This document shows, in pieces, positions 1,629 to 60,716 of a stretch of DNA of 64,000 bases. The position numbers and the translations under genes are program-made. The notes beneath the pieces were generated by a model. That model was not told the DNA's origin. It saw nothing but the letters and a program-made list of their open reading frames with translations, and made no database searches. This DNA is from Candidatus Doudnabacteria bacterium. Its GTDB lineage: Bacteria; Patescibacteriota; Doudnabacteria; UBA920. The stretch covers positions 220,981-284,980 of the forward strand of contig CAWINB010000001.1 of assembly GCA_963837465.1 (NCBI GenBank). Reading direction: 5' to 3'. The stretch's first letter is position 1; each line of letters opens with the position of its first letter.

Positions 1629-2906
1629 GGTCTAGCGGCAAGCTATTGCCTGTATGCAAGAAAGAGCTCGGAGGACGACGAAAGGCAGGCGCTGAGCATC
1701 GATAGCCAAATTAAAGAGATGATGCTCATAGCAGACCGCGAACATCTGGTAATATCCGAGGTGCGCAAAGAAAGCCACTCAGCTAAAGATTCTGGCCAGA
1801 GGCCGGTGTACAACCAACTGCTCAAAGATGTTAGGAGCGGAATGTTCGCGGGCATCCTAACATGGTCGCCGGATCGTCTTAGTAGGAATGCCGGTGACTT
1901 AGGGGTGCTGGTGGACTTAATGGACCAGGGACTGCTTAAGGAAATCCGAACTCACGGCCAGCGATTCAGTAACTCACCGAACGAAAAGTTCCTACTGATG
2001 ATCTTATGTAGCCAAGCTAAACTGGAAAACGATAACAGAGGTATCAACGTAAAACGCGGACTTAAAAATAAAGCTGAGCTGGGAATTAGGCCGGGACTGG
2101 CCCCCTTGGGTTACTATAACGAACTAAGTCATGACAGAAATAAGGGTAAGATTGTTGTAGACCCAGTTAGAGCGCCAGCAGTAAAAGAAATGTTTGAGAG
2201 AGTGGCTTACAATGGCGACAGTGGCCGGGACATTCTAAACTGGCTAAGTAACGAAATCGCATTTACAACCAGAACCGGTAAACGAGTGGCGCTAAGTAAT
2301 GTGTACGCCATGCTCAGGAATAATTTTTATTACGGCATGTTTGAATACCCGTTCAAGAGTGGAAATTGGTACGAGGGAACACACGAGCCGCTAATTAATA
2401 AAGATTTGTTCGATAAAGTACAAGAGCAGTTACGAACTGCGCCTAAGTCTATGCCGGGAACCAAAGAGTTCGATTTTACTAAAATATTTACTTGCGGTGC
2501 CTGCGGTTCGGGAGTAACTGCCGAGGAAAAATTTAAAAACCTAAAAGATGGAACGGTAAGAAGATATATCTACTATCACTGTACTGGTGGGTCTGACCGG
2601 AGCTGTAACCAACTTTATATTAGGGAAGATGAAATTTTAAGCCAGCTGATGGATATAATAGACCGCTTAGATATAGACCAGCTCGGGATTAAAGACCGAG
2701 TTTACAAAGAACTATTTCGCTATCAAACATTAATAAAAAGCGTCTTAGGCCAGCCAGGTATGGCGGCCATTGAATTGCCGCAGATAGACACTAAAGCTTA
2801 CGCCAAGCACATACTTAAGGATGGGAGCAGGGATGAAAAACGAGAGCTGCTATCATGTTTAAAAACCAAACTATTGATAAAAGACAAAAAAGTATACGCA
2901 GAATAA
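1629..2906 (+). CDS. Large serine recombinase (resolvase catalytic domain + recombinase domain + zinc ribbon). The N-terminus is out of frame with the only upstream ATG that has an RBS.
   Basis: The frame after the stop at 1626 reads GLAASYCLYARKSSEDDERQALSIDSQ...ILTWSPDRLSRN... (catalytic Ser motif and DRLSR), then ...CGACGSGV...YYHCTGG (zinc ribbon). The ORF track starts at the ATG at 1719, which is internal to the catalytic domain. An ATG at 1559 follows a strong RBS (aaggaaaggag) but is in the +1 frame and encodes a 48-codon ORF that overlaps the catalytic-domain start. Confidence 0.7.
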   Translation, partial: GLAASYCLYARKSSEDDERQALSIDSQIKEMMLIADREHLVISEVRKESHSAKDSGQRPVYNQLLKDVRSGMFAGILTWSPDRLSRNAGDLGVLVDLMDQGLLKEIRTHGQRFSNSPNEKFLLMILCSQAKLENDNRGINVKRGLKNKAELGIRPGLAPLGYYNELSHDRNKGKIVVDPVRAPAVKEMFERVAYNGDSGRDILNWLSNEIAFTTRTGKRVALSNVYAMLRNNFYYGMFEYPFKSGNWYEGTHEPLINKDLFDKVQEQLRTAPKSMPGTKEFDFTKIFTCGACGSGVTAEEKFKNLKDGTVRRYIYYHCTGGSDRSCNQLYIREDEILSQLMDIIDRLDIDQLGIKDRVYKELFRYQTLIKSVLGQPGMAAIELPQIDTKAYAKHILKDGSRDEKRELLSCLKTKLLIKDKKVYAE

Positions 2907-3048: not shown

Positions 3049-3123
3049 TGGCTGGGGCGCCAGGGATCGAACCTGGGAATGCAGGCTTCAAAGGCCCGTG
3101 CCTTACCGCTTGGCTACGCCCCA
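3049..3123 (-). tRNA. tRNA-Gln (anticodon UUG) with encoded CCA.
   Basis: Reverse complement is UGGGGCGUAGCCAAGCGGUAAGGCACGGGCCUUUGAAGCCUGCAUUCCCAGGUUCGAUCCCUGGCGCCCCAGCCA. It has a 7-bp acceptor stem, U8, anticodon stem CGGGC/GCCUG, loop CUUUGAA giving anticodon UUG, T-arm CCAGG-UUCGAUC-CCUGG, discriminator G and CCA. Confidence 0.85.
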
Positions 3124-7042: not shown

Positions 7043-7420
7043 CTATTTCATAGTCAGTTCATTGTCGTTAGCCTGTAAAAACTTTGGCGTTTCCGCCGGC
7101 ACATAGTTGGCGCTTAAAAAATCGTTCTGGATGCTGACCATGGAAGCCGCCTCGGAAACTTTTAAATTTATCTGTTTGTTGTCGGAAGTCAGGTTGGCCA
7201 GCTGGTTTTGCAGCGTCTTTATTTCATAGCCCTGCGAGGTGAATTGGTTGACTCCGTAAACATAGGCAAAAAGCAGGACGATATTGGCGGCCACCAGCGC
7301 GAAAGCCAAACGCGCGCGCCGGGAATTTTTGGCAGTGTCCTTTTTTATAAGCCTGACTTTTGTTTTCGAAAAACCCGCCGGCCACAAGCCTTGCAATATT
7401 GCTTCTTTGGTCATATTCAT
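7043..7420 (-). CDS. ftsL: FtsL-like cell division protein (single TM + coiled coil).
   Basis: 125 aa with a TM segment LAFALVAANIVLLFAYVYGV followed by a coiled-coil-like region. It sits between rsmH and ftsI as in the canonical mraZ-rsmH-ftsL-ftsI order. Confidence 0.55.
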   Translation of the reverse strand: MNMTKEAILQGLWPAGFSKTKVRLIKKDTAKNSRRARLAFALVAANIVLLFAYVYGVNQFTSQGYEIKTLQNQLANLTSDNKQINLKVSEAASMVSIQNDFLSANYVPAETPKFLQANDNELTMK

Positions 7421-9197: not shown

Positions 9198-9315
9198 AAA
9201 TACGCCGCTAATTAATCGCTGATGAGTACGTGGATTGATAGCCGAACCGGGATCTCAGCAACTTTTCAGCGGCTGCAGACCTATCCAGTGTTAGTTCAGC
9301 GCCCAAAAAAATATA

Positions 9316-9340
9316 CACAGAAATACCCACTTATCCCCAC
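9316..9340 (-). promoter_or_regulatory. Candidate MraZ operator: GTGGG direct repeats at 10-bp spacing upstream of mraZ.
   Basis: The minus strand reads GTGGGgataaGTGGGtatttCTGTG. There are two exact repeats and one degenerate repeat. They lie between a TATAAT-like box (plus 9370-9377, minus strand) and the mraZ start. Confidence 0.35.
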
Positions 9341-9424
9341 CTACTACCACTTTTTACCATTACCTAAACATTATACTCCACAAATCCCCATAAGTCAAAG
9401 CTGTAAAAATTATGTAAAACAACA

Positions 9425-9451
9425 AAAAACCTCTTATTAAAGAGGTTTTTA
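9425..9451. terminator. Bidirectional hairpin terminator.
   Basis: aaaaacctctt-atta-aagaggttttt with an A-run on one side and a T-run on the other. Confidence 0.4.
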
Positions 9452-9598
9452 AAATATCCCTTGGCTGCTATCCACAGCAGTTCATCACTCAAGAAACCGG
9501 GAACTATCCCTTTACAGCAGGCTTATGACGGAAATAGGCAAAGGCGATTTAAAATCGCCGCTAATCTTAGTTAGTCATTAATTTTGGATTACTTAAAC

Positions 9599-10174
9599 CT
9601 ACGGCGCTTTGGTTTGTTCCGGATCGTGTTTGTCAATATCATCCCTATTCATACCAAAATCCTCTAAGCATAGATTGCGGAAATAAATAGCTCCTACTCT
9701 CCTTAAAATATTGGTGCTGATACCTTTTTCAAAGGCAAATTTCTTTAACTTATCGTCAAAAACAGGATCAAACGCAGTTATGTCAAAAACCTTAAAAATA
9801 TGTTTTTGAACTTCATACGGATTTGTTGTTTTTTTCTCCTCGCAAATTTTTATAAAATCACTTTTATGGGCATCTATATATTCTTTCATTCCGCTTTCCA
9901 CCAGCCAGCTCTCGCCGGTAGAATTTAAATTTACCGGCGAATGAGAGCTAAAAGCCGGGGTTTTCGTGTTTTCAGAATCAACCTTCAGGTCGTGTAAAGT
10001 GTCTTTCACCCACTGCATTGAAGTTTCCAAGGCCGTAAAACGACCGTTGGAATACCATGCGATACAAATCAAAAAACCTACCAACCCTAAAAAATATTCC
10101 CAACCAATTTGGATAGTCATATAAAATTCATTCCCGGATAAATTGTAACTTAAATTTATTGCCGCTACAAGCAA
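9599..10174 (-). CDS. Hypothetical membrane protein.
   Basis: 191-aa ORF with an N-terminal hydrophobic segment (EYFLGLVGFLICIAWY). Confidence 0.45.
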   Translation of the reverse strand: MLVAAINLSYNLSGNEFYMTIQIGWEYFLGLVGFLICIAWYSNGRFTALETSMQWVKDTLHDLKVDSENTKTPAFSSHSPVNLNSTGESWLVESGMKEYIDAHKSDFIKICEEKKTTNPYEVQKHIFKVFDITAFDPVFDDKLKKFAFEKGISTNILRRVGAIYFRNLCLEDFGMNRDDIDKHDPEQTKAP

Positions 10175-21393: not shown

Positions 21394-21804
21394 TCAAGGG
21401 GAAAAGCGGGCTTCATCAATAGCCAGGTTGACCAGCTTGTCGGCTTCCTTGTTCCGCTCCCTGGGTACGTGGGAAAAAAGCACGGACTTAAAATTATTTT
21501 TGAGTTTCAGTACTTCCGAAGCCAGCTCACGCAGAGTCGGCTCTTTTATTTTATATTGCCCGTTCATCTGGCGGACAATCAATTCCGAATCCATTTTTAC
21601 CGTTAAGTCCAAAGCGCCGATTTTTACCGCCTCGCTTAAGGCCAAAATTAAGGCGCGATACTCGGCCACGTTATTGGTGGCTTGGCCGATGTATTGCTTA
21701 TGTTCGGCGATAACTTCATTCCGATCGTCCCGAAACACCACCCCAATTCCGGCCGGCCCCGGGTTGCCCCTGGCGCCGCCATCGGTATTTATGATTAAAT
21801 TCAT
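21394..21804 (-). CDS. rnhA: Ribonuclease HI.
   Basis: INTDGGARGNPGPAGIGVV...AEYRALILAL...RERNKEAD. Confidence 0.85.
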   Translation of the reverse strand: MNLIINTDGGARGNPGPAGIGVVFRDDRNEVIAEHKQYIGQATNNVAEYRALILALSEAVKIGALDLTVKMDSELIVRQMNGQYKIKEPTLRELASEVLKLKNNFKSVLFSHVPRERNKEADKLVNLAIDEARFSP

Positions 21805-21892: not shown

Positions 21893-23671
21893 TTAGATAA
21901 GCTTTAAATCTATTATCCTCAACTTCACTTCCTTTTTTCCATTCCATTCATCGCACATCAGTTCCGCAGCGATATCTACAGTATCCCCTATTTTAAGATT
22001 CTTGGCAAAATTAGACGCACTGAACATTATCCCCGCCACTTCTTTGTCGGCAATCCTGAACTTAATTTGGAGGTGAGAGCTTTGCTTACCAACCAGCTTT
22101 ACGGAAATGACTCTGAATTTGGGCATTAAAAATATCGGCTTTGGGTTGCCGATGCCGAAGGGTTCCAGTTGTAGTAACAAGTGACAAGTGACAAGTGACA
22201 AGTCTGTGGGTTCAAGTTCCGCTTCAAGGCGCAGTACAGGCGATGAGTCGTCATCCGCTGAATTTTTATCCGCGTATTCCAGGATTTTTTGGTAAAAAAT
22301 TCCCAGATGTTCATTTTTTACAGTCAGTCCGGCCGCCTGCTTGTGGCCGCCAAAACGCACCAGATGCCGCGAAGCATACTTTAATGATTCCACAACATCA
22401 AAATTCCCCGCAGTTCGCGCCGACCCTGTGGATTCCAACTCCCCTTTTTCCAAAACTATCACGGGCTTGTAAAATTCCTCGGCCAGCTTGCCGGCTACTA
22501 AGCCGACCACCCCTTTATGCCAATCGGCATTGGATAAGACCAAAATCTTTCTTTCCCCAAGCAGCAAGGCGGCTTCACGGGCTTCGCTGACAATCCTTTG
22601 GGTAATGTCCTGCCTGCGCCGGTTGACAGTTTCCAAATCAGCCGCTTTTGGCATTGCGCTTTCCAAATTATTTTCCAGCAATAAATCCAAAGCCTGGTCC
22701 GCGTGCTCCAGCCGCCCGGCCGCGTTTAAACGCGGGGCGATAATAAAACCTAAAGTGTAAGTGTCGGGCGGATTTTTCGCAAAATCCAAAGCCGAAGATT
22801 GGGCCAAAGCGCGCAAACCGGGCCACTTGGTCTTTCGCAAAACCTTAAGCCCATACTTTACCAGTATCCGATTTTCACCCATCAAAGAATGACAGTCCGC
22901 CACGGTGCCAATAGCTACCAAATCGAGCAGCCATTTTTCCCATCCTGGGATGTGTTGTGTGGGGGCGAGCTTCAGCCGCCCGTCATCAAAGGGCGGGCGC
23001 GCAAGCGCGGCCCCTGCACGGACCGCGTCAGACAAAATTCCGCACGCCAATTTAAACGCCACTCCCACACCCGTAATTTCATGGTAAGGATAAGTATCTT
23101 CGGAATTTTTGGGATTAATTAAAGCGTAAGCATCGGGAGTGGGACCGATAATTTCATGGTGGTCGGTAATAATAAAATCAATACCATTTACTTTGCAAAA
23201 TTCCGCCGCGTCCACCGAGTTGGTGCCGCAGTCTACTGTAATGATCAGACCGGCACCGCCATCTTTGATTTTTTCCAGCGCCTCTAAATTCACCCCATAA
23301 CCTTCCGTAAACCTGTCGGGAATATAACTTTCCATATTCTGGTGTCCAAGATATTTAAACGTCTGCCGCAAAACAGCATTAGCCGTCACCGCGTCGGCAT
23401 CGTAATCGCCATAAATACAAATTTTTTCTCCGCGATCAACAGCCAGCCAAATCCTGTCCACGGCCTTTTGCATATCCTTAAACAAAAAAGGGCTGTGCAA
23501 ATTTTCGTACCTGGGGTTTAAAAAATCCGCTGTCTGATGTTTATCCGTCAGCCCCCTATTGTATAAAAGTTGCCTCATCAGAGGCGGGTATTCCGATAAC
23601 TTTTCAGCAACATCCTGGGGAATTTGTGATTTTAATTTCCAAATTTTAGGCATAAACCATTGTATCAGCAT
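21893..23671 (-). CDS. recJ: Single-stranded-DNA-specific exonuclease RecJ.
   Basis: DHH motifs (ICIYGDYDADAVTANAVL, ...IITDHH...) and a DHHA1 region. Confidence 0.85.
   Translation of the reverse strand: MLIQWFMPKIWKLKSQIPQDVAEKLSEYPPLMRQLLYNRGLTDKHQTADFLNPRYENLHSPFLFKDMQKAVDRIWLAVDRGEKICIYGDYDADAVTANAVLRQTFKYLGHQNMESYIPDRFTEGYGVNLEALEKIKDGGAGLIITVDCGTNSVDAAEFCKVNGIDFIITDHHEIIGPTPDAYALINPKNSEDTYPYHEITGVGVAFKLACGILSDAVRAGAALARPPFDDGRLKLAPTQHIPGWEKWLLDLVAIGTVADCHSLMGENRILVKYGLKVLRKTKWPGLRALAQSSALDFAKNPPDTYTLGFIIAPRLNAAGRLEHADQALDLLLENNLESAMPKAADLETVNRRRQDITQRIVSEAREAALLLGERKILVLSNADWHKGVVGLVAGKLAEEFYKPVIVLEKGELESTGSARTAGNFDVVESLKYASRHLVRFGGHKQAAGLTVKNEHLGIFYQKILEYADKNSADDDSSPVLRLEAELEPTDLSLVTCHLLLQLEPFGIGNPKPIFLMPKFRVISVKLVGKQSSHLQIKFRIADKEVAGIMFSASNFAKNLKIGDTVDIAAELMCDEWNGKKEVKLRIIDLKLI
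22174..22201. repeat. Heptanucleotide tandem repeat (GTAACAA GTGACAA GTGACAA GTGACAA) inside the recJ coding sequence.
   Basis: gtaacaagtgacaagtgacaagtgacaa, read directly from the sequence. Confidence 0.8.
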
Positions 23672-23680
23672 TAACCCGCA

Positions 23681-23707
23681 TTGACAAAAAAAATAAAATC
23701 ATATAAT
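23681..23707 (+). promoter_or_regulatory. Consensus-hexamer promoter TTGACA-15-TATAAT, divergent from recJ.
   Basis: ttgaca at 23681-23686 and tataat at 23702-23707. Confidence 0.4.
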
Positions 23708-23714
23708 AAAGATA

Positions 23715-24016
23715 ATAGGTATCAATTACCGGCAGTAGGCTATCTTAACTTTTAGGAGCACGACTGACTAAAACAACTTCTCCACAAGAGAAGTTGTTTT
23801 GTTTAAGCCACATTTTATGATATGCTTACATTGTCGGAAGTTTGGGAAGTCGAAGTCAGCCGGGCTGACCGGTAATTGATACCTACCAGGTTCCGCTAAC
23901 AGCGGAATACGGTTCGACTCCGCCGGCTTCCGATACTTCCTTTCTCAAACCACCATTCTAAAATGATGCGCTAAGAGAGATGGGCAGGTTAGGAAGCTGC
24001 CCGGGGTCTTTTTTTT
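23715..24016 (+). ncRNA. Candidate structured non-coding RNA of about 300 nt with unknown identity (promoter to terminator, no ORF).
   Basis: An 11-bp long-range helix pairs UCAAUUACCGG (about 23712-23722) with CCGGUAAUUGA (about 23867-23877). There is a perfect 13-bp hairpin aaaacaacttctc-cacaa-gagaagttgtttt and a hairpin gtcagcc-g-ggctgac. A T-loop-like GGTTCGACTCC is present. The 3' end is an intrinsic terminator gggcag-gttaggaag-ctgccc followed by T8 (23982-24016). Confidence 0.35.
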
Positions 24017-24073
24017 ATCGAGGTTATATCCTCGGGTTTCGGTAGGTGTGGAGCCTACGCCCGCCTCTTTGTT

Positions 24074-24358
24074 TTAATAAAACCTCCTTGTCCTTGCTGT
24101 AATTCCATCTGGAATTTCGCAGCTGGTTTGGCCTGACCTTAACAGTTTCAGGCAGTATTTTTTGATAGTCTTTGGATTTGCAGTGACTTCATACCTCAAC
24201 CATCGGCTCATACAGATTTCAATTTCGTGGTTTAGTGGTAGTATGCACTTTAACACATGGGTGACATTAAAACCTGCTTCCGAATAAGTGACAACAAAAT
24301 CACGGCATCCAGTTTTTTGCAAAACATAAGTCAATCGGTCTGGCGGAAAGCTGAACAT
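24074..24358 (-). CDS. Hypothetical protein on the GC-rich islet.
   Basis: 94-aa ORF. Confidence 0.35.
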   Translation of the reverse strand: MFSFPPDRLTYVLQKTGCRDFVVTYSEAGFNVTHVLKCILPLNHEIEICMSRWLRYEVTANPKTIKKYCLKLLRSGQTSCEIPDGITARTRRFY

Positions 24359-24368
24359 GGTTTATAAT

Positions 24369-25133
24369 CTATTCCTCCTCTCCGTTAATTAAATCCCTTA
24401 GGATGTAGAAGTTCAGCCACTCTGGGATTGTTCCGTGACCTTTCGCAAGCTCGCGCCAGTCAGTAGCACCGTGGATTTGTCCGAGTTGTGAAAGCAAAGC
24501 CGCGAGCTCTTGTTCTGGCATAGCAAGACAGTCGATCAGCAGTAAATCAATCCTTGTCATCAAAGCCCCAAATTTAGCCTTCAATACTGGTATTGCCTCA
24601 AACGGCTTGCACTCGGCAATTTTTACCCCAGCAGCTAAACTGACTAGCTTAAGGATGAGCGAGGTGCAATTCTCCTGACCAGGAAGAATTTGTTTACCGT
24701 ATTTGTTGGCCCAATGACGGGCTTGAAAAACGGGCATTGCAATGGTCCCTTGCCGCAAAGCCGAGTAAAACTGGGCCACATAAGCAATTTGATATTCGGA
24801 TAAGTCCAGAGTGCATTCGGACTGAACCCAGTGCCAATCGCAATTAACAGCGAGCAACCCCGGGACGCCAAATGCCAACGCCATTTCGCCTTGAGGCGTA
24901 AGGTTGCCAGAGCCATCGTGAAAATTTGGATTGCGCTTAACGCCTCCGGTGAAGCGGTAAAGTGCTCCGTTTACTTCCAACCCCAATCCACCGCCAGCGG
25001 TGTAGCCGTGTCTTCCCTGATCGCCACAGAATACCCGCAGATATGGAGTGGTTTGTTTTTTGCGTTCTTCGTACGCCAGACGGCGCACCACACCATAAGG
25101 CACAGAGGGTCTTGCTTCGTCACCATTGAACAT
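24369..25133 (-). CDS. Hypothetical protein. Its GC content and codon usage are atypical for the window (roughly 52% GC).
   Basis: 254-aa ORF with no confidently recognised motif. Its codons are enriched in GCC/CGC/CTG compared with neighbouring genes. Confidence 0.5.
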   Translation of the reverse strand: MFNGDEARPSVPYGVVRRLAYEERKKQTTPYLRVFCGDQGRHGYTAGGGLGLEVNGALYRFTGGVKRNPNFHDGSGNLTPQGEMALAFGVPGLLAVNCDWHWVQSECTLDLSEYQIAYVAQFYSALRQGTIAMPVFQARHWANKYGKQILPGQENCTSLILKLVSLAAGVKIAECKPFEAIPVLKAKFGALMTRIDLLLIDCLAMPEQELAALLSQLGQIHGATDWRELAKGHGTIPEWLNFYILRDLINGEEE

Positions 25134-25305
25134 TTTTTACTCCGTATGTCCTATGTAGAGGACAGTCTGTTTTATCACAATTGTGATATATTGCCAGTTC
25201 GTCTTCCAAGGCTTTATTCAACTTAGTCAAGGAAATGACTTTGTTGATAAGGACTGAGATGACGGTTCCGAAAATTGAACTTACAACGATTTGGATCAGA
25301 GTCAA
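25120..25305 (-). CDS. Hypothetical small hydrophobic protein.
   Basis: 61 aa with N-terminal TM segment IVVSSIFGTVISVLI. It overlaps the start of the 254-aa gene by 14 nt. Confidence 0.25.
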   Translation of the reverse strand: MTLIQIVVSSIFGTVISVLINKVISLTKLNKALEDELAIYHNCDKTDCPLHRTYGVKNVQW

Positions 25306-25682
25306 TTTTTTCCTCTTTCTTTGTAAACGAGTATCCAGCGCATGCTTTTCGCTTACGATGTCAAAGTGCTTTTACGCTGGCTAAAAAAGACTTAAATCAG
25401 CTTTAGCCAAAACAAAAACACCTTCCGCAAAGCCGGGAGGTGTTTGAAAATTTGAGGAGATGGCCGATGTTATCGGCGCGCTACATTATCAAACCCGGAC
25501 TTCGCGAAAGCAGAGTCCAGTTCCAGATATTTTGTGCTTTAATGCTAAAGATTGTATTCATAAAACTATTTTAATCCAAATACTCCGTTTTGTCAAGTTC
25601 CGTTTGCGCTAGCGTACTAGTACGCTAAAACATGCGAAATTTTGCGGGATTGTCGAGGAATGAATATTTTTTAAACAGCTTC

Positions 25683-40220: not shown

Positions 40221-40262
40221 GGGGTTAGGGGTTAGGGGTTAGGGGTTAGGGGTTAGGGGTTA
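40221..40262. repeat. (GGGGTTA)6 perfect tandem heptamer array beginning 3 nt upstream of the galT start codon.
   Basis: ggggttaggggttaggggttaggggttaggggttaggggtta. On the mRNA strand this is (TAACCCC)6 immediately 5' of the AUG. Confidence 0.85.
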
Positions 40263-40296
40263 GAAAGTGCATTACTCTCGCCCTATTCCCTTGCCT

Positions 40297-40680
40297 CTAT
40301 CCCCTATTTTTCTTATCCAAATAATTTTGCAATAAAATTTGCGCAGCCAAACTATCCAAGTTCTTTTTTTGTCCGCTAATATGTTCCGCCATTTGCGATG
40401 ACAGCCGTTCGTCTGTAATTTCTATTTTAATTTCAGTCAATTTCTCTAGCTTCTCCCTGAATTCGGCCACTTCCCTTGTCTTGTTAGTTTCCTCTCCACT
40501 CATATTCAGGGGCCAGCCCACAACTATTTTAGTTATCTGATCATCCGCGATGATCTGCGAAATCTCATCCCAAAAATCCCTCGGCGATAAAATCGCAAGT
40601 TCCCGCGCAAAAGTTTGGCTCTCATCGCTAATTGCCAAGCCTATCCTTTTTTCTCCGTAATCAATTCCGAGTATTTTCAT
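40297..40680 (-). CDS. ruvX: RuvX/YqgF Holliday-junction-resolvase-like pre-16S rRNA nuclease.
   Basis: MKILGIDYGEKRIGLAISDE.... Confidence 0.8.
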   Translation of the reverse strand: MKILGIDYGEKRIGLAISDESQTFARELAILSPRDFWDEISQIIADDQITKIVVGWPLNMSGEETNKTREVAEFREKLEKLTEIKIEITDERLSSQMAEHISGQKKNLDSLAAQILLQNYLDKKNRG

Positions 40681-60600: not shown

Positions 60601-60716
60601 TGAGGTAGGGATTAGGGTATAGGGATTAGGGTATAGGGATTAGGGTATAGGGATTAGGGTATAGAAGGAAACGCTTTCCTGCTAAACGCTAATCCCTAGC
60701 CGCTAGACGCTAATTT
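60601..60716. repeat. Tandem 14-bp repeat (GGGATTAGGGTATA)x4 abutting the rpsZ start, followed by an inverted GCGTTAG-type segment.
   Basis: tagggattagggtatagggattagggtatagggattagggtatagggattagggtatagaaggaaacgctttcctgctaaacgctaatccctagccgctagacgctaa. Confidence 0.7.

What the first reader, a model, noticed from the sequence alone, without database searches (positions are those of the whole stretch)
23681..24016. A promoter-to-terminator unit of about 300 nt with no ORF looks like a structured ncRNA of unknown class
Divergent from recJ there is TTGACA-15-TATAAT. An ORF-free stretch follows that ends in a strong intrinsic terminator (GGGCAG...CUGCCC + U8, 23982-24016). Inside it are an 11-bp long-range helix (UCAAUUACCGG ... 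CCGGUAAUUGA, about 165 nt apart), a perfect 13-bp hairpin (AAAACAACUUCUC-CACAA-GAGAAGUUGUUUU), GUCAGCC-G-GGCUGAC, and a T-loop-like GGUUCGACUCC. I tested it by eye against tmRNA (no 5' GGGG acceptor pairing and no tag ORF ending in Ala-Ala), RNase P RNA (no GGUAAGAGC or AGGGUGAAA) and 4.5S RNA (no GGAA-capped domain IV), and found no convincing match. It is immediately followed by a small GC-rich islet, the classical position of an integration target.
Basis: seen in the sequence. Interest (0 to 1): 0.5.

Follow-up and report, generated by a model that had tools for sequence, protein, structure and literature searches.

The report
Odd tRNA gene with self-masking leader
The "unknown ncRNA" is built around a non-standard transfer-RNA gene (selenocysteine-tRNA-like shape, serine-type acceptor end, isoleucine anticodon) on a small strain-specific insertion in a CPR bacterium. 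The first 17 bases of its transcript are perfectly complementary to its own anticodon arm, which may keep a potentially mistranslating tRNA switched off.

Summary
The described features are real. The region has one of only two perfect sigma-70 consensus promoters in the window (23681-23707), no ORF of 30 aa or more, a 13-bp hairpin, and a terminator with a U8 tail. The long-range helix is 17 perfect base pairs, not 11.

Positions 23845-23932 fold into a cloverleaf with an 8-bp acceptor stem, a Sec-like D arm, a long variable arm, a canonical T-loop and discriminator G. The acceptor stem is Ser-type (GGAAGU) and the anticodon is GAU (Ile). Rfam gives a weak tRNA-Sec hit (27 bits, below gathering). 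ARAGORN calls tRNA-Ile(gat) only at 95% of its threshold. This matches the "allo-tRNA" kind (Mukai 2017).

The 5' arm of the 17-bp helix starts at the predicted transcription start and pairs with the D/anticodon arm. Folding favours this masked state by about 17 kcal/mol.

The unit lies on a 2-kb insertion between iPGM and recJ that five Doudnabacteria-like relatives lack. No homologue of the RNA was found, so conservation and covariation are untestable.

Best reading: an expressed, leader-masked allo-tRNA-like gene. Main rival: a decaying tRNA relic.

The parts
23681..23707 (+). Sigma-70-type promoter TTGACA-15-TATAAT. The predicted start is about 23713-23716.
   Evidence: Sequence. It is one of two 12/12 consensus matches in 64 kb, against 0.07 expected.
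23716..23732 (+). 5' arm of the 17-bp perfect helix (UAGGUAUCAAUUACCGG). It is antisense to the D-stem end and anticodon arm of the tRNA-like gene, contains the Ile codon AUC, and begins at the predicted 5' end of the transcript.
   Evidence: the repeat finder I1. Pair probabilities are about 1.0 in the full-length ensemble. The 17-mer is unique to these two sites.
23770..23806 (.). Perfect 13-bp hairpin flanked by A4 and UUUUGUUU. It looks like a terminator on both strands and could end a roughly 93-nt leader RNA.
   Evidence: the repeat finder I5. RNAfold gives -16.7 kcal/mol. The scan tool did not call it. A terminator role is inferred.
23836..23840 (+). GGAAG in the leader. It pairs with CUUCC at 23936-23940 in the trailer and so extends the acceptor helix of the precursor.
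   Evidence: the repeat finder I4. MFE of 23834-23942.
23845..23932 (+). Non-canonical tRNA gene (allo-tRNA / tRNA-Sec-like).
- Acceptor stem: GGAAGUCG/CGGCUUCC, 8 bp.
- D stem: GUCAGC/GCUGAC.
- Anticodon stem: GGUAA/CUACC, with one A.C mismatch.
- Anticodon loop: UUGAUAC; anticodon GAU at 23878-23880.
- Variable arm: 7-8 bp.
- T arm: (A)CGG-UUCGACU-CCG(C).
- Discriminator G; no encoded CCA.
   Evidence: Rfam tRNA-Sec 27.1 bits. ARAGORN -ps calls tRNA-Ile(gat), 88 nt. The cloverleaf is the MFE of the isolated 88-mer. ARAGORN -ps made 4 false calls in 40 shuffled windows and none in 912 kb of other loci.
23869..23885 (+). 3' arm of the 17-bp helix. It covers the end of the D stem, position 26, the 5' strand of the anticodon stem, the anticodon loop and part of the 3' strand.
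23975..24016 (+). Intrinsic terminator: lower stem, GGGCAG/CUGCCC hairpin, U8.
   Evidence: RNAfold -15.6 kcal/mol. Hairpin and U tract are conserved in L069/L070.
24017..24066 (.). Conserved block downstream of the terminator. Together with the terminator (23981-24066) it is 86% identical to L069 7028-7113. It belongs to the 254-aa gene module, not to the tRNA-like unit.
   Evidence: blastn. Alignment A2.
23672..25682 (.). 2-kb insertion between the iPGM stop and the recJ start. It carries the tRNA-like unit (+) and ORFs of 94, 254 and 61 aa (-).
   Evidence: Relatives L002, L119, L120/L121 and L122 have iPGM and recJ 73-207 nt apart.

Best explanation
The locus is an expressed, non-canonical tRNA gene of the allo-tRNA / tRNA-Sec-like kind. 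It is carried on a 2-kb strain-specific insertion in a Doudnabacteria-like CPR genome.

The 88-nt tRNA has an 8-bp acceptor stem, a Sec-like long D stem, a long variable arm, Ser-type identity elements (G1-C72, G2-C71, A3-U70, G73, long V arm) and an isoleucine anticodon (GAU). If matured and charged by SerRS, it would put Ser at AUC/AUU codons.

It is transcribed from a consensus promoter with a 131-nt leader. The first 17 nt of the leader are a perfect antisense of the tRNA's D/anticodon arm. At equilibrium the primary transcript adopts a long leader-tRNA duplex rather than the cloverleaf. That duplex is a plausible RNase III substrate, so the tRNA is masked or destroyed.

Alternatively, transcripts may end at the internal hairpin (about 23806). 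They would then give a short anti-tRNA RNA that binds the mature tRNA in trans.

Shown here: the cloverleaf, the 17-bp complementarity, the energetics, the promoter and terminator motifs, the insertion, and the absence from relatives.

Inferred, not shown: transcription, processing, charging by SerRS, toxicity and masking in vivo.
For: - Cloverleaf: Rfam tRNA-Sec is the best clan hit (27.1 bits, E 0.0034 for the region). ARAGORN calls tRNA-Ile(gat) with an 8-bp acceptor at 95% threshold. That setting gives 0.1 false calls per shuffled window and no spurious call in 912 kb of real loci. The isolated 88-mer folds into the cloverleaf as its MFE (z = -3.6). The T-loop is canonical (UUCGACU), and U33 and A37 are present.
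- Expression signals: one of two perfect consensus promoters in 64 kb, pointing into the unit, plus a U8 terminator.
- Masking: the 17-bp perfect helix starts at the predicted TSS. No shuffle reaches it. The MFE of the full transcript is -119.6 kcal/mol, against -102.2 with the cloverleaf enforced, and helix pair probabilities are about 1. The short leader plus tRNA cofold at -79.7 kcal/mol, against -65.4 when folded separately.
- Precedent: allo-tRNAs have tRNA-Sec-like shape, G73/U73, a long V arm and mostly non-Ser anticodons (Ile among the commonest). They insert Ser at sense codons and arrest E. coli growth when induced. They are often found near toxin-antitoxin or mobile elements (PMC5389517; PMC7609411).
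- Class II tRNAs with a GAU anticodon also exist in four IMG/VR viral contigs, scoring 43-50 bits on Rfam tRNA.
Against: - This is a single locus. No homologue of the RNA was found in relatives' syntenic regions, in contigs carrying the neighbouring gene's homologues, or in phage and viral collections. There is therefore no covariation or conservation support.
- The CM score is below the Rfam gathering score. Scaled to the whole window, its E-value would be about 0.4.
- Two stem-end A.C mismatches (31-39 and 49-65), a T stem of only 3 Watson-Crick pairs, and a 3-5-nt D loop could be signs of decay.
- No CCA is encoded, whereas the window's canonical tRNA-Gln encodes it.
- A 17/17 helix with no G.U pair is also what a recent DNA-level inverted duplication would give.
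- The neighbouring module shows decay: the TrpR-like gene is truncated.
- The four viral class II GAU tRNAs have no antisense leader.
Confidence: 0.5

Rival explanations
1. Decaying tRNA relic. The cloverleaf is a non-functional remnant of a class II or Sec-like tRNA brought in with, or beside, a mobile module. The 17-bp inverted repeat is a recent DNA-level event such as a template switch or inverted duplication. The promoter mainly reflects the AT-rich divergent recJ promoter region.
For: - The element is absent from all relatives and has no homologue.
- It has A.C mismatches, a short T stem and no CCA.
- The adjacent TrpR-like gene is truncated.
- Mukai et al. describe allo-tRNA(UAU) pseudogenes and inactive copies associated with transposable elements or TA systems.
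- The minus strand also has promoter-like sites here: TTGATA-16-TATGAT (10/12) and TTGTCA-17-TACAAT (10/12).
- The repeat has no G.U pairs.
Against: - A 12/12 consensus promoter pointing into the unit is rare (0.07 expected per window).
- The repeat starts exactly at its predicted TSS.
- The T-loop, U33, A37, the 8-bp acceptor and the V arm are all intact.
- Flanks of the 17-mer show no decayed extension of a larger duplication.
Confidence: 0.3
2. A structured ncRNA whose tRNA-like module is not used in translation. For example, it could be a decoy or antitoxin for a tRNA-targeting enzyme, or an RNase P-dependent processing signal that releases the leader as the functional small RNA.
For: - The whole 307 nt is strongly structured (z = -8.1).
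- Leader and trailer pairing (GGAAG/CUUCC) extends the acceptor stem.
- Mukai et al. suggest regulatory, non-translational roles for many allo-tRNAs.
- In L071 a MazE/PIN pair sits next to the homologue of the neighbouring 254-aa gene.
Against: - No partner protein was identified. The 254-aa family has no Pfam, PHROG or PADLOC match, and the AF2 model is poor.
- Homologues of that protein lack any tRNA-like RNA nearby.
Confidence: 0.12
3. DNA inversion switch. The two 17-bp inverted repeats are recombination sites flanking a 136-bp invertible segment that holds the tRNA 5' half. Inversion would break or restore the gene.
For: - The inverted repeats are perfect, 17 bp, 136 bp apart and unique in the window.
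- A large serine recombinase is encoded at 1719-2906.
Against: - No recombinase lies within 20 kb.
- The promoter lies outside the segment.
- An independent Logan contig has the same orientation with no mismatches in this region.
- The repeat coincides with an RNA stem-loop of a tRNA and with the transcript's 5' end.
Confidence: 0.05

Closest known systems
Allo-tRNAs (8/4 and 9/3 tRNA-Sec-like tRNAs; Mukai et al. 2017, PMC5389517)
   Same: - Found as sub-threshold tRNA-Sec-model hits.
- 8-bp acceptor with a shortened T stem, a long D stem with a tiny loop, and a long variable arm.
- G73 and Ser-type acceptor.
- A non-Ser (Ile) anticodon.
- Located on variable or mobile DNA.
   Different: - The T stem has only 3 Watson-Crick pairs plus A.C, so the acceptor branch has 11 clean pairs rather than 12.
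- The anticodon stem is not extended.
- The anticodon is GAU. The anticodons named as predominant in the text read are UAU, GCG and GUC; the full list (Figure 2) was not available.
- The host is CPR/Patescibacteria, whereas the reported hosts are Clostridia, Proteobacteria and Acidobacteria.
- It has a 131-nt leader with 17-nt perfect antisense to its own anticodon arm. I found no description of such a leader in the text read.
Bacterial tRNA-Sec (selC, Rfam RF01852)
   Same: Best-scoring Rfam family. It shares the GGAAG...CUUCC-G acceptor, the 8-bp acceptor, the 6-bp D stem, the long V arm and the GGUUCGACUCC T arm.
   Different: - The score of 27.1 bits is below the gathering score of 47.
- The anticodon is GAU, not UCA.
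- The T stem is 3-4 bp, not 5.
- No sel genes were seen among the annotated ORFs of the window.
Type I toxin-antitoxin and cis-antisense RNA control (RNase III-cleaved RNA duplexes)
   Same: A potentially toxic gene product is paired with a perfectly complementary RNA segment made from the same locus. The duplex, about 17-25 bp, is long enough for RNase III.
   Different: The 'toxin' would be a tRNA rather than an mRNA. The antisense segment is on the same strand and in the same transcript (a leader), not an overlapping convergent gene. All of this is inferred.
T-box leaders
   Same: A 5' leader contains the codon (AUC) that pairs with a tRNA anticodon and is followed by a terminator-like hairpin.
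   Different: - No T-box match in Rfam even at E up to 10.
- Pairing is 17 nt of perfect antisense rather than a specifier codon in a Stem I platform.
- The downstream 'gene' is the tRNA itself.
Class II tRNAs with GAU anticodon in IMG/VR viral contigs (L153, L165, L168, L173; found here)
   Same: Long variable arm, GGAAG 5' end, UUGAUAC anticodon loop, followed by a terminator hairpin, and located on mobile (viral) DNA.
   Different: - They have canonical 7/5 geometry with a tRNA-Ser/Leu-type D arm and pass the Rfam tRNA gathering score at 43-50 bits.
- The top of their acceptor stem is mismatched.
- They have no antisense leader.
- They are not sequence homologues. The shared motifs were imposed by my search pattern.

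Membership tests
allo-tRNA (Mukai 2017) | 12-bp acceptor branch arranged as 8/4 or 9/3 | tested here: inconclusive
   The acceptor stem has 8 pairs (7 Watson-Crick and one U.G). The T stem has 3 Watson-Crick pairs plus an A.C at 49-65, so the arrangement is 8/4 only if the mismatch is counted.
allo-tRNA (Mukai 2017) | Long variable arm | tested here: met
   GUUCCGC-UAACA-GCGGAAU, 7-8 bp and unbulged.
allo-tRNA (Mukai 2017) | Long D stem with a very small loop, as in tRNA-Sec | tested here: met
   GUCAGC-CGG-GCUGAC, read as 6 bp with a 3-nt loop or 5 bp with a 5-nt loop.
allo-tRNA (Mukai 2017) | Anticodon stem longer than the canonical 5 bp | tested here: not met
   The stem is GGUAA/CUACC, 4 Watson-Crick pairs plus A.C. 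Positions 26-44 would be C.A.
allo-tRNA (Mukai 2017) | Discriminator G73 or U73 (SerRS identity) with a mostly non-Ser anticodon | tested here: met
   G at 23932 and anticodon GAU at 23878-23880. Charging by SerRS itself cannot be tested with these tools.
tRNA-Sec (RF01852) | Score at or above the Rfam gathering threshold | tested here: not met
   27.1 bits against a gathering score of 47. It is not listed in the gathering scan.
tRNA-Sec (RF01852) | UCA anticodon and 8/5 acceptor branch | tested here: not met
   The anticodon is GAU and the T stem is 3-4 bp.
tRNA-Sec (RF01852) | selA/selB/selD present in the genome | not testable with these tools
   Only 64 kb of a 700-kb contig is held. None was seen among the 30 ORFs scanned against Pfam.
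Canonical tRNA-Ile(GAU) | 7/5 geometry, short variable loop, A73; called by standard tRNA finders | tested here: not met
   8-bp acceptor, long V arm and G73. ARAGORN at default settings and Rfam at gathering threshold do not call it.
tmRNA | tRNA-like domain plus a tag reading frame; detected by ARAGORN or the Rfam tmRNA models (standard or permuted) | tested here: not met
   No call by ARAGORN at default or 95% threshold. At 80% there is only an implausible permuted call with an unidentified tag. There is no Rfam tmRNA hit at E up to 10.
T-box riboswitch | Stem I, specifier loop and T-box sequence (Rfam RF00230) | tested here: not met
   No hit at E up to 10 in 23600-24150.
Invertible DNA switch (inverton) | Inverted repeats flanking a short segment | tested here: met
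   17-bp perfect inverted repeats 136 bp apart.
Invertible DNA switch (inverton) | Nearby invertase, and both orientations present in reads | tested here: not met
   There is no recombinase in the 2-kb insertion or within 20 kb. Two assemblies show the same orientation. Read-level data were not available.
Retron ncRNA | a1/a2 inverted repeats next to a reverse transcriptase gene | tested here: not met
   An inverted repeat is present, but there is no RT. The nearby RVT_3/RNase_H hit (21394-21804) is a 136-aa RNase H that is conserved in synteny in relatives.

The most novel reading that the evidence does not exclude
An RNA-only 'toxic tRNA with a safety catch'. A missense (Ile to Ser) allo-tRNA would be held inactive by its own 5' leader, or by a leader-derived small RNA, through a 17-25-bp duplex over the anticodon arm. 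Mistranslation would be released only when the leader is removed or outcompeted. This would be a new kind of toxin-antitoxin or stress/defence module, carried on a mobile islet in a CPR bacterium.
Probability: 0.15. Interest if true: 0.8.

Novelty: new variant of a known kind. Interest (0 to 1): 0.45.

Why it matters
Allo-tRNAs can rewrite sense codons and are toxic when expressed. How their hosts tolerate them is an open question. Mukai et al. could only suggest links to toxin-antitoxin systems.

A natural allo-tRNA-like gene whose own transcript carries a perfect antisense to its anticodon arm would be a concrete, testable control mechanism. The test is simple: express it with and without the leader.

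If real, it would also extend this tRNA kind to the CPR/Patescibacteria. If instead it is a relic, the locus is an ordinary piece of decaying mobile DNA.

Tried and rejected
- **tmRNA, RNase P RNA, SRP RNA, T-box and other Rfam families.** Nothing appears at gathering threshold. In the E-value scan, nothing appears apart from the tRNA-Sec hit and low-complexity or hairpin noise.
- **Homologues by synteny.** RecJ-anchored scans of genome contigs and metagenome contigs, plus four contig look-ups of the closest RecJ proteins, all show iPGM directly next to recJ.
- **Homologues via the neighbouring 254-aa gene.** Only 5 homologues were found, and the family has 25 cluster representatives among 1.84 billion. 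Their contigs have no tRNA-like RNA.
- **blastn and exact-pattern searches in phage, E. coli and viral collections.** Nothing was found, or only chance matches in coding repeats.
- **MITE or larger decayed palindrome.** The 17-mer occurs only twice, and its flanks are not significantly complementary.
- **Co-adaptation of the terminator to the tRNA 3' half.** The full-length MFE contains a 15-bp alternative helix there. Its duplex energy is within shuffles (73 of 1000 as good), and the L069 version pairs equally well. Dropped.
- **Leader peptide or attenuation.** The only candidates are an 18-codon CUG-initiated frame after AGGAG and a 19-codon ATG frame with no SD. Neither is Ile-rich (read by eye). 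Not pursued.
- **Function of the 254-aa protein.** No Pfam, NCBIfam, PHROG or PADLOC hit. The AlphaFold model has pLDDT 53, so no fold search was run.
- **Second weak ARAGORN call at 9517-9603.** Poor stems and no T-loop, so treated as noise.
- **Coding potential of the conserved block on the minus strand.** The frame is open in both genomes but has no start codon. Unresolved.

Full report
**1. Observation**

- TTGACA (23681-86), a 15-nt spacer and TATAAT (23702-07) point away from recJ. recJ is at 21893-23671 on the minus strand (TIGR00644, 512 bits).
- The built-in promoter scan allows only 16-18-nt spacers and missed it.
- My own scan with 15-19-nt spacers finds just two 12/12 consensus matches in the 64-kb window, against 0.07 expected in block shuffles. 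Matches of 11/12 or better number 11, against 2.4 expected.
- So this organism uses such promoters, and this one is unlikely to be chance.
- No ORF of 30 aa or more lies between 23685 and 24073.
- The long-range helix is 17 perfect base pairs, 23716-23732 with 23869-23885. No shuffle of the region reaches that length. The 17-mer occurs nowhere else in the window.
- The 13-bp hairpin (23770-23800) and the terminator (GGGCAG/CUGCCC plus a lower stem and U8, -15.6 kcal/mol) are present.
- The 307-nt stretch folds with z = -8.1.
- The 'GC-rich islet' is not supported at 300-nt scale.

**2. What it is**

Rfam at gathering thresholds and ARAGORN at default settings find only a tRNA-Gln elsewhere in the window.

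A permissive Rfam scan of 23600-24150 gives one structured hit: tRNA-Sec at 23845-23931, 27.1 bits, against a gathering score of 47. Its E-value is 0.0034 for the 551 nt searched, or about 0.4 if scaled to the whole window.

Read as a tRNA, the 88 nt give a clean cloverleaf:
- Acceptor stem GGAAGUCG/CGGCUUCC, 8 bp.
- Linker AA.
- D arm GUCAGC-CGG-GCUGAC.
- Anticodon stem GGUAA/CUACC, with one A.C mismatch.
- Anticodon loop UUGAUAC, with U33, anticodon GAU and A37.
- A 7-8-bp variable arm.
- T arm (A)CGG-UUCGACU-CCG(C).
- Discriminator G, and no encoded CCA.

ARAGORN at 95% of its threshold calls exactly this as tRNA-Ile(gat), 88 nt, with an 8-bp acceptor. That setting makes 4 false calls in 40 shuffled windows. 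In 912 kb of other fetched loci it makes no spurious call. The isolated 88-mer adopts the cloverleaf as its MFE.

The acceptor stem (GGAAGU.../...GCUUCC-G) is of the Ser/Sec type; that comparison with E. coli tRNA-Ser and selC rests on my own knowledge. The anticodon is for Ile.

This combination defines the allo-tRNAs of Mukai et al. These are tRNA-Sec-like sub-threshold hits with 8/4 or 9/3 acceptor branches, a long D stem, a long V arm, G73/U73 and mostly non-Ser anticodons. They insert Ser at sense codons in E. coli, are toxic when induced, and often lie near toxin-antitoxin or mobile elements (PMC5389517; PMC7609411).

**3. The leader**

With a start about 7 nt after the -10 box (23713-23716), the 5' arm of the 17-bp helix begins at the 5' end of the transcript. 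It is a perfect antisense of the tRNA from the last D-stem base through the anticodon loop, and so contains the codon AUC.

ViennaRNA gives the following:
- The full transcript (23714-24016) has an MFE of -119.6 kcal/mol with this helix formed, and pair probabilities of about 1.
- Forcing the cloverleaf costs 17.4 kcal/mol.
- A short leader ending after the internal hairpin cofolds with the mature tRNA at -79.7 kcal/mol, against -65.4 for the two folded separately.

The internal 13-bp hairpin is followed by UUUUGUUU and could terminate part of the transcripts. A weak second promoter-like site (TTGTTT-16-TATGAT, 23794-23821; read by eye) could drive the tRNA alone. GGAAG/CUUCC pairing of leader and trailer extends the acceptor helix in the precursor.

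**4. Surroundings**

RecJ's closest relatives are 59-67% identical. Those that carry a source name are labelled Candidatus Doudnabacteria or Patescibacteria group.

In L002, L119, L120/L121 and L122 the gene order is enolase, iPGM, recJ, RNase H, PEGA protein, MreB. Only 73-207 nt separate iPGM from recJ. In the window 2011 nt are inserted there (23672-25682). The insertion holds the tRNA-like unit on the plus strand and ORFs of 94, 254 and 61 aa on the minus strand.

The 254-aa protein belongs to a very small family:
- Five homologues were found, and the family has 25 cluster representatives among 1.84 billion.
- It matches no known domain, and the AlphaFold model is poor.
- Its homologues sit in different contexts, usually after a Trp_repressor-like gene and once beside MazE/PIN.
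- None has a tRNA-like RNA nearby.

Only the terminator plus the next 50 nt (23981-24066) are shared with L069/L070, at 86% identity. Homology starts about 23939, just after the tRNA trailer. So the tRNA-like unit is the unique left end of the insertion. It was not a pre-existing integration target.

**5. Search for homologues**

All of the following found nothing or only chance matches:
- Synteny-based scans.
- Neighbour-based look-ups.
- blastn against phages and E. coli.
- Exact-pattern scans of viral contigs.

A Logan contig (L001) covers the locus. Its only difference from the window is one mismatch, at 24870 inside the 254-aa gene.

A looser pattern (GGAAG...TTGATAC...GGTTCGA) recovered four genuine class II tRNAs with a GAU anticodon in IMG/VR contigs. 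They score 43-50 bits on Rfam tRNA, and their anticodon and V stems show compensatory changes. So long-arm tRNAs with Ile anticodons recur on mobile DNA. However, these have 7/5 geometry, lack an antisense leader, and are not homologues.

Conservation and covariation of the window's RNA therefore cannot be assessed.

**6. Explanations**

Best explanation (confidence 0.5 overall). I put about 0.8 on 'tRNA-derived, allo/Sec-like gene' and about 0.35 on the masking mechanism. In this reading an expressed allo-tRNA-like gene is kept in check by its own leader, or by a leader-derived small RNA. The leader pairs with the D/anticodon arm, blocking the L-shape and probably creating an RNase III substrate.

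Rivals:
- A decaying tRNA relic with a DNA-level inverted duplication (0.3).
- A non-translational tRNA-like ncRNA (0.12).
- An invertible switch (0.05).

Points against the best reading are the single locus, the sub-threshold scores, the two A.C mismatches, the missing CCA when the window's tRNA-Gln encodes it, and decay of the neighbouring TrpR-like gene.

**7. Verdict**

The interpretation as an ncRNA of unknown class is only partly supported, because the core is a non-canonical tRNA of a described kind. The self-antisense leader and the CPR host are new. I found no paper combining allo-tRNA and Patescibacteria.

Novelty: a new variant of a known kind. Interest: moderate, because the evidence is one locus without expression or comparative support.

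Noticed in passing
window 23981-24066: The terminator hairpin plus 50 nt are 86% identical to L069 7028-7113 and L070 1097-1182, where the block lies downstream of the 254-aa homologue. That is more conserved than the adjacent CDS (74%). In L069 both hairpins carry the same loop, GUGUGGAG. On the minus strand the block is an open frame in both genomes, and in the window it is in-frame with the 94-aa ORF after a single TAA, but there is no start codon. Whether it is coding or RNA is unresolved.
   Followed up: partly
window 25560-25650; L069 5315-5349 and about 7175-7190; L073 2866-2888 and 1533-1571: The palindrome TAGCGTACTAGTACGCTA recurs in these CPR contigs, overlapping a TTGACA-17-TAAAAT promoter at 25596 on the minus strand. 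It contains GTACTAGTAC, like TrpR operator half-sites. In L069 and L073 it sits at the start of a Trp_repressor-like gene. In the window that gene is missing or truncated: the one frame translated across 25445-25650 has stops, and no minus-strand ORF of 30 aa or more is listed there.
   Followed up: partly
window 23672-25682: A 2-kb strain-specific insertion splits the otherwise conserved enolase-iPGM-recJ gene run. It includes a small TM-like 61-aa ORF (25120-25305, minus strand) and a 254-aa protein of a very small orphan family.
   Followed up: yes
window 1719-2906 (+) and 3049-3123 (-): A large serine recombinase (Resolvase, Recombinase and Zn_ribbon_recom domains) lies next to tRNA-Gln(ttg). 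This may be the boundary of an integrated element.
   Followed up: no
L153 1619-1708, L165 3295-3382, L168 1412-1504, L173 3739-3826 (IMG/VR contigs): Four bona fide class II tRNAs (Rfam tRNA 43-50 bits) have a tRNA-Ser/Leu-type D arm, a long variable arm, a GAU (Ile) anticodon and conserved mismatches at the top of the acceptor stem. Each is followed by a terminator hairpin. They may be phage missense tRNAs.
   Followed up: partly
L069 1-3382: A 23S rRNA gene of a CPR-like MAG is interrupted by two or three group I introns (Rfam 47, 34 and 20 bits).
   Followed up: no
window 9198-9598: A 400-nt ORF-free stretch has weak Rfam leader hits on the minus strand (rimP and Phe leader, below threshold), a terminator-like AAAAAACCUCUUAUUAAAGAGGUUUUU, and a TTGACT-17-TATAAT promoter at 9398 on the minus strand. 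It may be an unannotated small RNA or leader.
   Followed up: no
window 40224-40314 and 60645-60701: Strong hairpins give the best noise-level hits to miRNA precursor models (32 and 28 bits). The second scores on both strands, so it is a near-perfect palindrome.
   Followed up: no
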